Assembly (NCBI GenBank): GCA_030018135.1
Contig: JASEGJ010000026.1
Coordinates: 1 to 14,544 of the forward strand
Origin: Candidatus Hodarchaeaceae archaeon
Lineage (GTDB): Archaea > Hadarchaeota > Hadarchaeia > Hadarchaeales > Hadarchaeaceae
Reading direction: 5' to 3'
DNA length: 14,544 bases
Part shown: positions 10,800 through 14,038 of the stretch, piece by piece
How positions within the stretch are numbered: the first letter of the stretch is position 1
Layout of the letters: the number at the start of each line of letters is the position of its first letter
Made by a program: the position numbers and the translations under genes
Notes under the pieces: model-generated
The model's input: the letters and a program-made list of their open reading frames with translations, nothing else
Database searches by the model: none
What the model was told of the DNA's origin: nothing

Positions 10800-11291
10800 T
10801 CATTCGGCAGGGTTGTGATGGCTGAGCTGCGCGAGAAGGGCCGCCGAGAGTTCGTCGACAGCCCCCTTCACCTTTTCGCTCATCCTCGCCCCCATTCCCG
10901 TGCTGCTCGGCTGAATTCCGAGCAATACGACTTTTGCCGTGGTCTGGGCGCGCAAATAACCCGCGAGCAGGGAGAGCGGCATGGTATGGGTGGAGATCGG
11001 TCGGCCCGTGATGGCCTCCGGCTCGCTTAATATCGTGGCGCCCGGCTCGGAGCCGAAGTCCGTGGCATCGATGAGGATTACATGGGAGGGTTCAAACTTT
11101 CTTATCTCCGCTGTAAAGTTCTCCGGGGCCACGCCCGCCTCGATTAAGAGCACATTCGGCGAGCTCAATCCCCGCCTAAGCCTTCGCACCACCTCGATGC
11201 CCGCCGCATCGTCGCTCCGCATATCGCTACCTATGCCCACTATCGCCACTCGGGTTGCACCCTTGAGCAAGGATGAGAGATCCAGCTTCAA
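10800..11291 (-). CDS. hycI: Hydrogenase maturation endopeptidase, HycI type
   Basis: IVGIGSDMRSDDAAG, GVAPENF, LIDATDFG, ISTHTMPL, LLGIQP. Confidence 0.88.
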   Translation of the reverse strand: MKLDLSSLLKGATRVAIVGIGSDMRSDDAAGIEVVRRLRRGLSSPNVLLIEAGVAPENFTAEIRKFEPSHVILIDATDFGSEPGATILSEPEAITGRPISTHTMPLSLLAGYLRAQTTAKVVLLGIQPSSTGMGARMSEKVKGAVDELSAALLAQLSHHNPAE

Positions 11292-11292
11292 T

Positions 11293-11994
11293 TCATCGCC
11301 TCAAAAACCGATCTAGGATGAGGTCCTCTTGGCTTGCCCCAACCCGCTTGAGCATCGCCATCGGCCAGTCCACCCTTCCCACCTCGGCGACGGTGTGGGC
11401 GTCCGTACCTATGCTCAACTTAACCCCCTCCCGCAGACAGGCCTCGAGCAAACCTTGATCTGGCACGCGATACTTGGAGTTGAGCTCGATCGCGACCCCC
11501 CTCTTGGCCGCCGATTCGGCGAAGGCGGCGATATCCTCGCGCGAGAGATAGGGCGCAAGGTAGCGATGGAGCTGAAACGGGTGCGCCAGGACATCGGCCC
11601 GCTGGTGTTCCATGGCCTTCATTATTGCGTGAAAATATGCCCTCGCCAACTCCGATGGTTCGCGGCTGAAAATTCTAAGCCTGTGTATGCCCATGATTAT
11701 GATATCGAACCTGTCGATCAACCTTTCGTCCACATCGATTGCCCCATCGGCGTCAACGACGTTGGCCTCTATGCCCGCCAACACCGGGATCTCCGCGTCC
11801 TCCCTTGCCGCCGTGACATCCTGTAACATTGGGACTATCTTGTGGGGCGAGATGCCAACCGACAACTCTGGCCCATGGTCGGTAATCGCCACCGCCATCA
11901 AGCCGCGCGCCTCGGCCGCCTCTACCATCGCTGCTGCCGCGCTTTCCCCGTCGGAATATATCGTGTGTACGTGAAAATCGAATTTTGGCAACAC
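11293..11994 (-). CDS. PHP-domain metal-dependent phosphoesterase
   Basis: DFHVHTIYSDG, AITDHG, GIEAN, LAHP, IELN, IGTDAH; GTG 11994 follows GGGGTG. Confidence 0.9.
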   Translation of the reverse strand: MLPKFDFHVHTIYSDGESAAAAMVEAAEARGLMAVAITDHGPELSVGISPHKIVPMLQDVTAAREDAEIPVLAGIEANVVDADGAIDVDERLIDRFDIIIMGIHRLRIFSREPSELARAYFHAIMKAMEHQRADVLAHPFQLHRYLAPYLSREDIAAFAESAAKRGVAIELNSKYRVPDQGLLEACLREGVKLSIGTDAHTVAEVGRVDWPMAMLKRVGASQEDLILDRFLRR

Positions 11995-12071
11995 GGGCGC
12001 ACCCCTTAACCTACGATCTAAGAAGGGGGGACTCAATTAATAACTTCAGATGTTTTGCGTCGAACAAAATG

Positions 12072-12300
12072 GCGGGGATATCGACCCTTCCGCTACTATT
12101 TCGATAGCATTCCGAATCTCGACCACTTCGGTCGTCCATCGCTTTTTCACGTTGGGGTCTTTCTCCCACAGTCGTTGCCGCGCAACCCTGCTTCCGGGAG
12201 CTTATCCACAGCCTTCCCCGGTTTTTCGCCCGGGTTTTTCCGTGGCTCCCCGTTGCCCGTAGGCTCCGGTTCGGCCACCTCTGTGGGCTTCTGTCCCCGC
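12072..12300 (-). ncRNA. Putative structured non-coding RNA, family unassigned (~230 nt)
   Basis: Ends pair (GCGGGGA/TCCCCGC); internal helices CCCACAG/CTGTGGG, GACCC/GGGTC, GGGAGC/GCTCCC, CCCGG/CCGGG, GTTGC/GCAAC, CGACC/GGTCG; cUACGg tetraloop; A-rich linkers; TATA at suitable distance. Confidence 0.7.
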
Positions 12301-12322
12301 AAATGTTACTGGAGCAAGGCGC

Positions 12323-12340
12323 TATAAATAGTTCATTTCG
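12323..12340 (-). promoter_or_regulatory. BRE/TATA promoter for the putative ncRNA
   Basis: Minus strand CGAAATGAAC-TATTTATA ends 22 nt before the first paired G at 12300. Confidence 0.6.
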
Positions 12341-12435
12341 ATTGCCAAAAGTGTTGGCCGATTAAAACAAAGACTCGCAGAACCTTGGAGGGACAAGCAT
12401 AAAATACGAAAACGGCGCCAAATTAACCGATTGTG

Positions 12436-12659
12436 ATGTGCTTAGCGATTCCCGGTAAGTTATTAAAAGTGGATGAAAAGGTTGCAGTGGTGGACTTCGG
12501 CGGCATACGTAGAAATGCGCAGCTCGATTTGCTTGAAGATGTGCATGAAGGCGATTAATCGTGCATGTCGGCTATGCGATTCAGACATTGAACAAGGAAG
12601 AAGCGGAGAAGACAGTAAGGCTATGGGTTAAAATCGCCAAAGGTGAGGCCGGTGCATGA
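12436..12659 (+). pseudogene. hypC: HypC hydrogenase chaperone, frameshifted (missing from ORF track)
   Basis: MCLAIPGKLLKVDEKVAVVDFGGIRR..EGD* (TAA 12556-12558); IVHVGYAIQTLNKEEAEKT resumes in another frame at 12558; the expected GDYVIVHVG implies a 4-nt loss. Confidence 0.9.
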
Positions 12660-13032
12660 GGTCGAGCTGGCAAATCGGGTGTTAAGCGCGCTCCGTTCAA
12701 TAGCCATCGAGAACAACGCCGACATACTGGAGGTAAACTTACAAGTTGGCGAACTTAACGAGCCGCGTGCATTGCGATTTTGGTTAAATAAGCTCGGCGG
12801 CGATGAATTTAGGCCGGTCAAATTTAGGATTGAGCAAGTGCCTCTCACGATCAAGTGCGAATGCGGCTATTTCGGTGGGGCAAATTTGCCCACGGGCGTT
12901 CATTTATCTGAACCTGAACTCGAGATACCCTGCCCAAAATGCGGTAGACGCGGGGTCCGCCTGACATCTGGTCGCGAGTTTGAAATAGTCGATGTTAAGT
13001 TGCGAAAGGAGGTTCAAAAGGATGTTAGATAA
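12652..13032 (+). CDS. hypA: HypA nickel metallochaperone
   Basis: GTG-HE N-terminus (MHE nickel site), LQVGEL, CECG and CPKCG zinc ligands, SGREF. Confidence 0.9.
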   Translation: MHEVELANRVLSALRSIAIENNADILEVNLQVGELNEPRALRFWLNKLGGDEFRPVKFRIEQVPLTIKCECGYFGGANLPTGVHLSEPELEIPCPKCGRRGVRLTSGREFEIVDVKLRKEVQKDVR

Positions 13033-14038
13033 AAAAATTTCGCTGGTCCACGGCGCCGGTGGAGCTGCAATGATGAAGTTGATAAGGGATGTCGTGTTGA
13101 AGGAACTTTCGCTCACGCGCGTTGGTGCCATCGGTCTGAACGAGCTTGACGATGGTGCCACAATAACCGTTGGGGATAAAACGCTGGTGCTCACAACCGA
13201 TGCCCACACGGTCAAACCGCTTTTCTTTCCGGGAGGGGACATAGGCAGGCTGGCAATTTCTGGTACTGTTAATGACTTGGCCGTCATGGGGGCTCGGCCG
13301 CTCGCGATGGCCTGCGCGATCGTGCTCGAGGAGGGGTTCCCCATCGACGATTTGTGTAGGATTTGCCGTTCAATCGACTTGGCCACGCGCGAAGCAGCAG
13401 TGCCGCTGATAACCGGCGACACCAAGGTGATGGAGCGCCATGCGCTCGATGGCGCCGTGATCACGACGACGGGCGTAGGTATAGCAGATAACCCGACGAC
13501 AGACAGTGGGCTTAGGCCGGGCGATAAAATTATCATCACTGGAACAGTCGGCGATCATGGCGTCACAATTTTGACCCACCGAGAGGGCATTTCCCTTGAA
13601 ACGGACCTATGCTCCGACGTCGCCCCCATATGGGAAACTGTGAAAGCCGCTCTGGAAGCCGGAGGCATAACCGCAATGAAGGACCCGACGCGCGGCGGCA
13701 TTGCGGCCGCGCTTAATGAAATGGCATCAAAGGCTGAGGTGGGGATCGTCCTAGATGAACGAGAGATACCAATAAAACCAGCTGTTAAAGCGGCGAGCGA
13801 GATGCTCGGCATCGACCCCCTACAAATAACGAATGAGGGCAAGGCAATAATCGGGGCAAATCCCGAGTATTGCGAGGACGTACTAACTGCCATAAGGAAG
13901 ACCAAGTATGGGAAAGATGCTTGCGTGATTGGGGAGGCAATTGCCGATCACCGAGGGGAAGTAATGCTTAGAACCATGGTCGGGGGCCATCGCATAATAG
14001 AAGCGCCAGTTGGCGATCCCGCACCCCGAATTTGCTAG
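13022..14038 (+). CDS. hypE: HypE carbamoyl dehydratase
   Basis: HGAGG, PLFFPGGDIGRLAISGTVNDLA, TGDTKV, MKDPTRGG, NEGK, C-terminal PRIC; ATG 13022 after GGAGGT. Confidence 0.95.
   Translation: MLDKKISLVHGAGGAAMMKLIRDVVLKELSLTRVGAIGLNELDDGATITVGDKTLVLTTDAHTVKPLFFPGGDIGRLAISGTVNDLAVMGARPLAMACAIVLEEGFPIDDLCRICRSIDLATREAAVPLITGDTKVMERHALDGAVITTTGVGIADNPTTDSGLRPGDKIIITGTVGDHGVTILTHREGISLETDLCSDVAPIWETVKAALEAGGITAMKDPTRGGIAAALNEMASKAEVGIVLDEREIPIKPAVKAASEMLGIDPLQITNEGKAIIGANPEYCEDVLTAIRKTKYGKDACVIGEAIADHRGEVMLRTMVGGHRIIEAPVGDPAPRIC

What the first reader, a model, noticed from the sequence alone, without database searches (positions are those of the whole stretch)
12066..12340. Unassigned ~230-nt structured RNA with its own promoter between PHP/hycI and hypCAE
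Seen (minus strand): closing helix 12300-12294/12078-12072; a large domain closed by 12287-12281/12171-12165 holding a cUACGg hairpin (12264-12255), a long interrupted hairpin (12250-12196) and GTTGC/GCAAC; a second domain closed by GACCC/GGGTC (12159-12155/12087-12083) with three short hairpins. G-U pairs and A-rich linkers favour this strand; a BRE/TATA sits 22 nt upstream, a T-run follows, and the PHP gene has its own AT-rich box. It is not tRNA/rRNA and lacks the SRP helix-8 motif. Inference: the helix order loosely mimics an RNase P catalytic domain without an S-domain (GAGAAAGACCC .. GCGGAAGGGUCGAUA) but lacks the bulged U of P4, so it may be a highly divergent RNase P-like RNA or a new archaeal ncRNA class.
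Basis: partly seen in the sequence, partly recalled or inferred. Interest (0 to 1): 0.75.

Follow-up and report, generated by a model that had tools for sequence, protein, structure and literature searches.

The report
Orphan structured RNA family in Hadarchaeota

Summary
Window 12300-12066 (minus strand) is a real non-coding RNA gene of about 235 nt with its own archaeal promoter and T-run. Its fold is backed by compensatory changes in 43 of 59 pairs across 50 close homologues, and in 53 of 59 pairs across 97 distinct family members.

It is not RNase P RNA. The same genome has a canonical type A RNase P RNA (204.5 bits), an SRP RNA and a 5S rRNA. No Rfam family matches, even at E<=10.

A covariance model finds 1-6 copies in 51 of 66 genomes of the phylum. 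The phylum is called Hadarchaeota in this scan's earlier notes. Only chance-level hits appear in other archaea.

The family has three paralogous classes, A, B and C. They share one core and differ in a distal arm. The window copy is class A, and this genome also holds a second class A copy and a class B copy.

Copies sit at conserved housekeeping loci, and some species have cleanly lost them.

Function is unknown. My best guess is the RNA core of a ribonucleoprotein, with moderate-to-low confidence.

This scan had already noted two other members on other DNA (e1-1401787, e1-5166267).

The parts
12321..12340 (-). Promoter: purine/A-rich BRE-like stretch and TATA-like box (box itself 12330-12323), ending 23 nt before the RNA's first base
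   Evidence: Read. An A/T-only box ending 15-30 nt upstream is present in 91 of 98 family members and 51 of 52 class A members (rows printed).
12066..12300 (-). The RNA gene (class A member of the family), about 235 nt from the predicted start at 12300 into the T-run
   Evidence: Full-length match to model R1, 250.1 bits. blastn matches in relatives start and stop at these bases.
12295..12300 (-). P1, 5' strand of the closing helix (pairs with 12077-12072)
   Evidence: 5 of 6 pairs change on both sides across the family.
12072..12077 (-). P1, 3' strand
12165..12287 (-). 5' domain: helix P2 (12287-12281 / 12171-12165), an internal loop and a 3-bp helix (12275-12273 / 12179-12177) closing a four-way junction. 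The junction carries hairpin P3 (12269-12250), the long interrupted hairpin P4 (12245-12206) and hairpin P5 (12201-12182).
   Evidence: RNAalifold and pair counts. This is the most conserved part across all three classes (alignment A3).
12083..12159 (-). 3' domain: one interrupted arm made of P6 (12159-12155 / 12087-12083), P7 (12151-12149 / 12093-12091), an internal loop, P8 (12141-12135 / 12108-12102) and P9 (12131-12128 / 12115-12112)
12142..12148 (-). 5' side of the internal loop between P7 and P8. With 12101-12094 it has the sequence signature of a loop E / sarcin-ricin (bulged-G, AGUA/GAA-type) module.
   Evidence: Both strands are conserved in all three classes. The motif assignment is my reading from recalled knowledge of the motif and was not tested.
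12094..12101 (-). 3' side of the same internal loop
12116..12127 (-). Apical loop of P9. Seven consecutive bases are invariant in all 50 class A sequences aligned, while the flanking stem covaries. Classes B and C have different sequence here.
   Evidence: Invariant columns. P9 pairs show 21 changes on both sides. Class comparison.
12063..12070 (-). T-rich terminator-like run directly after P1
   Evidence: A run of 4 or more T at this place occurs in 78 of 98 members, 51 of 52 in class A.

Best explanation
SHOWN:
- Window 12300-12066 (minus strand) is an independently transcribed gene for a stable, elaborately folded non-coding RNA.
- The whole primary transcript is the fold. The 5' and 3' ends pair in a closing helix that joins two domains at a three-way junction: a four-way-junction domain and a long interrupted arm with a conserved internal loop.
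- It belongs to a family confined, as far as searched, to one archaeal phylum, called Hadarchaeota in this scan's earlier notes.
- The family has three paralogous classes: A about 235 nt, B about 207-220 nt, C about 200-215 nt.
- All classes keep the same core and differ mainly in the distal part of the 3' arm.
- The copies are vertically inherited at housekeeping loci, sometimes tandemly duplicated, and sometimes decayed or lost.

INFERRED (moderate-to-low confidence):
- The RNA acts in trans as the core of a ribonucleoprotein.
- The shared core, with its invariant purine-rich junctions and internal loops, binds a common partner.
- The class-specific distal arm gives each paralogue its own partner or target. 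In class A this arm ends in an invariant apical loop at 12127-12116.

The confidence figure covers the whole statement. The 'shown' part alone I put above 0.9, and the ribonucleoprotein-scaffold mechanism at about 0.3.
For: Fold:
- z -5.04 on the minus strand.
- 43 of 59 pairs have compensatory change in 50 class A sequences.
- 53 of 59 pairs do so in 97 distinct members. There 95.5% of cells are paired against 75.5% in shuffles (0 of 500 shuffles reach it) and 35-44% when partners are slid.

Strand and non-coding nature:
- 539 G-U cells against 69 A-C cells.
- No reading frame is open for 70 aa or more in over 27 of 52 class A copies, and lengths differ by single bases.

Own transcription unit:
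- An A/T box lies 15-30 nt upstream in 91 of 98 members, and a run of 4 or more T at the end in 78 of 98. In class A both are 51 of 52.

Not a leader of the next gene:
- The downstream gene is on the opposite strand at 19 class A loci, neighbours differ between loci, and the PHP/hyp context occurs only in this window among the held loci.

Family and classes:
- 51 of 66 genomes of the phylum have 1-6 matches.
- 98 matches lie in the 90 held loci: 52 at 209-260 bits and 46 at 25-146 bits.
- The own genome holds C18 (this window), C17:13374-13607 and C40:7690-7909.

For a modular RNP-like design:
- The core is conserved across classes.
- The distal arm is class-specific.
- The class A loop is invariant while its stem covaries.
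Against: - No partner protein was identified. No gene recurs next to the RNA other than housekeeping synteny.
- LSM-family copy number does not track presence of the RNA.
- No Ro60/TROVE protein was found in the genome, which is 93% complete.
- Three of four species of one genus lack the family altogether. One of them is a 9-contig, 95%-complete genome in which the two flanking genes are simply adjacent. Whatever the RNA does is therefore dispensable or replaceable.
- Such an ornate fold with invariant junction purines would suit a ribozyme equally well.
- Expression was not observed. No RNA data set could be examined.
Confidence: 0.45

Rival explanations
1. It is a ribozyme, or the catalytic RNA of an RNase P/MRP-like processing enzyme. 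The three classes would be specialised paralogues, as RNase MRP is to RNase P.
For: - The fold is large and multi-junction, with near-invariant purines in junctions and internal loops.
- The ends are closed by a helix, as in RNase P RNA.
- Paralogues keep the core while the periphery varies.
Against: - No match to any RNase P model.
- A canonical RNase P RNA is present.
- The P4-like helix is nested and covaries, with no bulged U and no pseudoknot. No extra long-range pairing stood out in a mutual-information scan.
- The family's models score nothing on the RNase P gene.
- The family is lost in some species, which is unusual for an essential processing enzyme.
Confidence: 0.13
2. It is a trans-acting base-pairing regulator. 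The invariant class A apical loop (12127-12116) pairs with a conserved target RNA, and the rest of the fold is a stabilising scaffold.
For: - Seven consecutive loop bases are invariant in all 50 class A sequences across three taxonomic families, while the closing stem covaries.
- Part of the loop is complementary to the universal 3' end of tRNAs with an A discriminator (my reading, not tested).
Against: - A search of the own genome for the loop's complement gave only scattered hits in coding sequence. None fell in a stable RNA or at a recurring position.
- Classes B and C lack this loop yet keep the whole core, so the core must have a function of its own.
- Known base-pairing small RNAs are far less elaborately folded (general knowledge).
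Confidence: 0.12
3. It is a translation-linked RNA that copies the design of 5S rRNA: a closing helix, a three-way junction, and one arm carrying a loop E-type module. It would bind a ribosomal protein, a factor or the ribosome.
For: - The topology parallels 5S rRNA, with the loop E-like internal loop conserved in all classes.
- A 5S rRNA with a large insertion is known in Halococcus (recalled, not checked here).
Against: - A normal 5S rRNA gene is present (94.7 bits).
- The Rfam 5S model does not match the element at E<=10.
- The family models score nothing on the 5S gene.
- The strand order of the loop E-like motif and the junction lengths differ from archaeal 5S rRNA (my reading).
Confidence: 0.07
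4. It is a mobile or selfish repeat (a MITE-like element, or a remnant of a virus or plasmid) whose apparent structure comes from its terminal inverted repeat.
For: - Several copies per genome.
- Tandem and decayed copies exist.
- Presence or absence differs between species of one genus.
Against: - Copies within a genome are only about 79% identical within class A and far less between classes.
- Each class sits at the same housekeeping locus in many genera.
- Every helix covaries, not just the terminal one.
- Each copy has its own promoter and T-run.
- No transposase or integrase recurs in the flanks.
Confidence: 0.03
5. It is a cis-acting leader or riboswitch of the PHP-hycI genes that follow it on the same strand.
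For: In the window the PHP gene (11293-12036, minus strand) starts about 30 nt after the T-run, on the same strand.
Against: - The PHP/hyp context is found only in this window among all held loci.
- Elsewhere the downstream gene is often on the other strand, and it is a different gene at different loci.
- The T-run follows the closing helix directly, and no alternative fold is evident.
- No riboswitch family matches.
Confidence: 0.02

Closest known systems
Archaeal RNase P RNA, especially the minimal type T (Rfam RF02357; types A/M RF00373)
   Same: - Size of about 200-290 nt.
- The 5' and 3' ends pair in a closing helix.
- Multi-junction fold with A/G-rich conserved junction strands.
- Stable RNA gene with its own promoter.
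   Different: - No model match.
- No P4 pseudoknot and no conserved bulged U.
- No CR-I/CR-V sequences, which the genome's real RNase P RNA does have.
- Several paralogues per genome, with loss in some species.
5S rRNA (Rfam RF00001)
   Same: - Closing helix plus three-way junction.
- One arm carries a conserved purine-rich internal loop of the loop E type.
- Independent small stable RNA.
   Different: - Twice the length.
- The other arm ends in a four-way junction instead of a hairpin loop.
- No model match.
- A normal 5S gene is present.
Eukaryotic/bacterial Y RNAs and vault RNAs (small RNP scaffold RNAs; recalled)
   Same: - Terminal stem formed by the two ends, followed by a U-run.
- Several diverged paralogues, plus pseudogene-like decayed copies and lineage-specific loss.
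- A conserved part and a variable part.
   Different: - Much larger and more intricately folded.
- No Ro60/TROVE protein in the genome.
- No sequence or model similarity.
Orphan ornate bacterial RNAs such as raiA, OLE, ROOL, GOLLD (Rfam; recalled)
   Same: - Found by covariation.
- Complex multi-junction folds.
- Narrow phyletic range.
- Function unknown or only partly known at discovery.
   Different: - Archaeal.
- Unrelated in sequence and structure (no Rfam hit).
- Three paralogous classes per genome.

Membership tests
RNase P RNA (Rfam clan CL00002: RF00373, RF02357 and relatives) | Match to a family covariance model | tested here: not met
   - No hit at gathering score on the window.
- No hit at E<=10 on 11950-12480.
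- RF02357 finds nothing in the whole genome at E<=10.
RNase P RNA | P4 long-range helix (pseudoknot) with a conserved bulged U and the CR-I/CR-V sequences | tested here: not met
   - The candidate helix (12159-12155 / 12087-12083) is nested.
- Its inner positions covary as ordinary pairs.
- The genome's true RNase P RNA shows the conserved strands in its alignment to RF00373.
RNase P RNA | It is the genome's RNase P RNA, with no other candidate present | tested here: not met
   Canonical gene at G000:C41:16740-17026, 204.5 bits, model positions 1-288.
5S rRNA (RF00001) | Match to the model; the genome's 5S gene | tested here: not met
   - No hit at E<=10.
- The 5S gene lies at C11:96140-96261, 94.7 bits.
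- The family models score 1 bit or less on it.
Archaeal SRP RNA (RF01857) | Match to the model; helix 8 motifs | tested here: not met
   - No hit.
- The SRP RNA lies at C7:1427-1734, 147.4 bits.
tRNA / tmRNA | Cloverleaf or tRNA-like domain recognised by ARAGORN | tested here: not met
   0 genes in the window.
MITE-like dispersed repeat | Many near-identical copies at unrelated sites, terminal inverted repeats only, no own promoter | tested here: not met
   - 3 copies in the genome, at 79% identity or much less.
- Conserved synteny per class.
- All helices covary.
- Each copy has its own promoter.
cis-regulatory leader / riboswitch | Constant position upstream of, and on the same strand as, a functionally related gene | tested here: not met
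   - Downstream genes differ, and are on the opposite strand at 19 class A loci.
- The PHP/hyp context occurs only here.
Y RNA (Ro60-bound RNA) | A Ro60/TROVE protein in the genome | tested here: not met
   PF05731 gives no match in the genome, which is 93% complete.
   - 250.1 bits over model positions 1-234. The window copy was among the sequences the model was built from.
- Promoter and T-run read.

The most novel reading that the evidence does not exclude
The family is the RNA subunit of a lineage-specific catalytic or RNA-processing ribonucleoprotein in archaea. Its three specialised paralogues would each be aimed at a different substrate by its distal arm. That would be a second ribozyme-type system beside RNase P, comparable to the RNase P/MRP split in eukaryotes.
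Probability: 0.12. Interest if true: 0.85.

Novelty: categorically new. Interest (0 to 1): 0.62.

Why it matters
Large RNAs with conserved multi-junction folds and dense covariation are rare. When such RNAs have been understood, they have usually proved to be ribozymes or the cores of important ribonucleoproteins.

New classes of this kind are very rare in archaea. Beyond rRNA, tRNA, RNase P, SRP and guide RNAs, few are known.

This family offers unusual handles for study:
- three paralogous classes share one core and have exchangeable distal arms;
- natural 'knock-outs' exist, in closely related species that have lost every copy;
- each class sits at a well-defined locus.

Comparing genomes with and without the RNA could therefore point to the partner protein or pathway.

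The result also corrects a tempting but wrong annotation as a degenerate RNase P RNA.

Tried and rejected
- **Known RNA families.** Rfam gave nothing at the gathering score or at E<=10, for the window or for the two paralogue loci. The paralogue loci gave only three chance-level hits, E 0.81-6.3.
- **Identity as RNase P, SRP or 5S RNA.** Rejected, because canonical genes exist and the family models do not score on them.
- **tRNA/tmRNA.** None found.
- **Expression.** The one run search listed no RNA holder.
- **Target of the invariant class A loop.** The complement search in the own genome gave only scattered coding hits.
- **Extra tertiary pairs or pseudoknots.** The mutual-information scan gave nothing clean beyond the nested structure. 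It is confounded by the paralogue classes.
- **Partner protein by neighbourhood.** Only housekeeping synteny was found: DRG-type GTPase, FAD-dependent reductase, family B DNA polymerase, glutamine synthetase and aldehyde:ferredoxin oxidoreductase. These names are my reading of the representative sequences, with no Pfam run on them.
- **Partner protein by family.** There is no TROVE protein. LSM copy number is the same in genomes with and without the RNA.
- **Regulon of the class A upstream palindrome.** A matrix derived from the held loci found nothing informative in the own genome. The top hit precedes a protein gene, with no RNA or tRNA there. An exact-pattern search in five genomes found nothing because the pattern was too strict.
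- **Homologues outside the phylum.** Weak hits of 20-23 bits appeared in other archaea. They have poor alignments. The best three lie inside a ribosomal protein L5 gene, so they are chance.
- **Pattern scans of the large public collections.** Not done. The metagenome, viral and 185,579-species collections were therefore not searched for this RNA.
- **A model from all 98 members.** A shorter 5'-domain model was built instead.
- **A poorly aimed literature search.** One search returned only generic papers.

Full report
**What is there**

Reading the minus strand of the window shows an A/T-rich TATA-like box at 12330-12323. Twenty-three bases later there is a G-rich strand (12300-12295) that pairs with 12077-12072, and a T-run follows directly. 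Between the two strands lie about 220 bases with no credible coding potential.

The single sequence folds to -99.3 kcal/mol on the minus strand, z = -5.04, and 0 of 200 dinucleotide shuffles fold as well. The plus strand reaches only z = -3.49.
- a PHP-domain gene (11293-12036) and hycI (10800-11291) on the same strand downstream;
- hypC, hypA (read from the ORFs) and hypE diverging on the other strand.

**Is it a known RNA?**

No Rfam family reaches its gathering score anywhere in the window. None is reported even at E<=10 when only 11950-12480 is searched with the permissive filters. ARAGORN finds no tRNA or tmRNA.

The genome that holds the window has 1.11 Mb in 45 contigs and is 93% complete. 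It carries:
- a canonical archaeal RNase P RNA at C41:16740-17026 (204.5 bits, whole model);
- no match to the minimal type T model;
- an SRP RNA at C7:1427-1734 (147.4 bits);
- a 5S rRNA at C11:96140-96261 (94.7 bits).

The element is therefore none of these. The family's own covariance models give nothing on those three genes. R2 scores at most 8.9 bits anywhere in the three loci. The best R1 hit, 13.3 bits, lies outside the RNase P gene and on the other strand.

**Homologues and the fold**

A blastn search of 61 relatives found full-length matches of 73-84% identity that begin and end at the bases of the closing helix, often two or three per genome. Fifty such sequences align with 80% mean column identity. 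RNAalifold predicts 59 pairs on them, and 43 of these have at least one sequence changed on both sides with the pair kept.

A covariance model built from them (R1) finds matches in 51 of 66 genomes of the phylum, or 20 of 26 among genomes at least 90% complete. By family, not counting the own genome, the counts are f1 39/45, f2 6/6, f3 1/1, f4 1/9, f5 3/3 and f6 0/1. The model also picks up shorter, much more diverged full-length relatives at 80-146 bits.

After fetching those loci, cmsearch over the 90 held loci gives 98 matches. On the 97 distinct rows of the resulting alignment:
- 53 of 59 pairs change on both sides;
- 95.5% of cells are standard pairs, against 75.5 +/- 0.4% after shuffling partners (0 of 500 shuffles reach the observed value);
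- only 35-44% of cells pair when partners are slid by 1-3 columns.

That alignment is fitted to the model, which favours the structure. The independent MAFFT/RNAalifold result points the same way.

In the modelled pairs, G-U cells outnumber A-C cells 539 to 69, which fixes the strand. No reading frame stays open for 70 aa or more in over 27 of 52 class A copies, and lengths differ by single bases, so it is not a small protein gene.

**Anatomy in window coordinates**

- P1 is 12300-12295 / 12077-12072.
- A 7-nt purine-rich joiner follows.
- P2 is 12287-12281 / 12171-12165.
- P2 leads through an internal loop to a 3-bp helix that closes a four-way junction.
- The junction carries hairpin P3 (12269-12250), the long interrupted hairpin P4 (12245-12206) and hairpin P5 (12201-12182).
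- An A-rich joiner follows.
- The second arm is P6 (12159-12155 / 12087-12083), P7, a conserved asymmetric internal loop (12148-12142 opposite 12101-12094), P8, P9 and the apical loop 12127-12116.

The internal loop has the sequence signature of a loop E / sarcin-ricin-type module. This is my reading from recalled knowledge and was not tested.

The small hairpin near 12186-12174 is replaced by P5 and the junction helix. The second domain is one stacked arm rather than three hairpins.

**A family of three classes**

Clustering and flanking genes separate three classes:
- class A: 53 sequences of about 235 nt, one of them an internally deleted 186-nt copy; the window copy belongs here;
- class B: 13 sequences, 207-220 nt when full length;
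- class C: about 30 sequences in several sub-clusters, 200-215 nt.

All classes share P1, the joiners, the whole four-way-junction domain, P6, P7 and the internal loop. They differ in the distal part of the second arm.

In class A the apical loop contains seven consecutive invariant bases in all 50 aligned sequences from three taxonomic families, while the stem below it shows 21 changes on both sides.

The own genome has the window copy, a second class A copy (C17:13374-13607, 79% identical) and a class B copy (C40:7690-7909, 134.9 bits).

**Genes of their own, vertically inherited**

An A/T-only box ends 15-30 nt before the first base in 91 of 98 members. A run of four or more T lies at the 3' end in 78 of 98. 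For class A both counts are 51 of 52 (sequences). Five of the seven members without a box are low-scoring, decayed or truncated copies; the other two are full-length members.

Each class sits at recurring housekeeping loci. Class A lies between a GTPase gene and a reductase gene, or upstream of a family B DNA polymerase gene. Class B lies in tandem just upstream of class A in one genus. Class C lies near glutamine synthetase. These protein names are my reading of the printed representatives.

The downstream gene is on the opposite strand at 19 class A loci. The PHP/hyp neighbourhood occurs only in this window among all held loci. The RNA is therefore not a leader of those genes. No transposase or other RNA-specific partner gene recurs.

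**Loss**

Fifteen of the 66 genomes have no match, among them all seven of one genus with larger genomes and three of four species of another genus.

In that second genus, the species with the RNA has it between the GTPase and reductase genes. In two species without it, one a 95%-complete assembly of 9 contigs, the same two genes lie side by side with only a short spacer. The family is therefore dispensable or replaceable.

**Range**

Model R1 gave only three hits, at E 0.25-0.86, among 85 archaeal genomes outside the phylum.

A second model, built from the 5' domain of all classes (R2), gave:
- two hits of about 20 bits in the same 85 genomes;
- seven hits of 20-23 bits in a further, partly overlapping set of 121 genomes.

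Their alignments break many pairs. The best three lie inside a ribosomal protein L5 gene. I count them as chance.

The large metagenome, viral and all-species collections were not searched (see Tried and rejected), so 'confined to the phylum' means only 'not found in those searched'.

**What it does**

This remains inferred. The design is a primary transcript whose two ends pair, with a universally conserved core and an exchangeable distal arm. Several old paralogues, decayed copies and lineage-specific loss go with it.

That pattern is what one sees in scaffold RNAs of ribonucleoproteins. I take this as the most likely reading (about 0.3). A ribozyme or RNase P/MRP-like processing RNA follows (about 0.13), then a base-pairing regulator that uses the invariant loop (about 0.12).

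I could not name a partner:
- neighbourhoods are uninformative;
- there is no TROVE protein;
- LSM copy number does not follow the RNA;
- the loop's complement has no convincing target in the genome;
- the class A promoter palindrome led to no regulon in this genome.

No RNA-seq holder was listed, so expression is untested.

**Novelty**

These full-text searches returned no paper on such an RNA:
- the phylum's two names with 'noncoding RNA', with 'RNase P' and with 'ncRNA';
- 'structured RNA' and 'covariation' together with one of the phylum's names.

I saw only the listings and the abstract starts. One search was badly aimed and uninformative.

Earlier notes of this scan had already flagged two other members. 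One is a 217-nt stretch elsewhere in this genome (e1-1401787, later marked 'part of it fell', without saying which part). The other is a roughly 212-nt RNA next to glnA in another genome (e1-5166267), which fits class C.

Both notes named type T RNase P RNA as the closest known and found no catalogued family, and my tests agree with that. As far as those short notes show, they do not report the following, which I can add:
- these members and the window copy are classes of one family with a shared core;
- the canonical RNase P, SRP and 5S genes are all present;
- the family has been cleanly lost in some species.

The phylum name itself comes from those notes and was not checked by me.

Noticed in passing
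Loci L016, L029, L033, L046, L048, L050, L093 and many others, about 58-45 nt upstream of class A genes (not present upstream of the window copy at 12340-12400): Most class A promoters carry a conserved 12-14-bp palindrome just upstream of the BRE/TATA region. Some class C promoters carry a different inverted repeat. It looks like a binding site for a class-specific transcription factor.
   Followed up: partly
L104:201-350; L014:1325-1419; L093:1952-2161; L094:2098-2307; L091:2001-2186: These are decayed or truncated family copies. Tandem class B-like copies upstream of class A have many broken pairs and no A/T box (25-68 bits). One class A copy has the whole four-way-junction domain deleted. 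Together they suggest birth by tandem duplication followed by decay.
   Followed up: partly
L097 (G008:C2) and L098 (G023:C4) compared with L096 (G016:C9): Within one genus, the GTPase and reductase genes flank a class A RNA gene in one species. In two others they are directly adjacent with a spacer of about 70-100 nt. This is a clean presence/absence polymorphism.
   Followed up: yes
G000:C17:13374-13607 (+) and G000:C40:7690-7909 (+): These are the second class A copy and the class B copy of the family in the same genome. Each has its own TATA-like box, and the C17 copy is followed by a T-run. Neither locus has an Rfam match.
   Followed up: yes
G000:C33:52896-52961 (-): A weak partial match to model R1 (17.3 bits, model positions 32-95). 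It could be a remnant or chance, and I did not examine it.
   Followed up: no
window 12473-12631 (+): A 52-aa ORF with a HypC-like N-terminus lies directly before hypA (12643-13032) and hypE (12992-14038). The minus-strand ORFs 12621-12854 and 12904-13539 in the same stretch have no Pfam match and are probably not genes.
   Followed up: partly
L106:501-642 (G231:C17) and the same place in L107, L108: The coding sequence of a ribosomal protein L5 gene in another archaeal lineage scores 20-23 bits against the 5'-domain model R2. It is a reminder that hits of about 20 bits to this purine-rich model are chance.
   Followed up: yes
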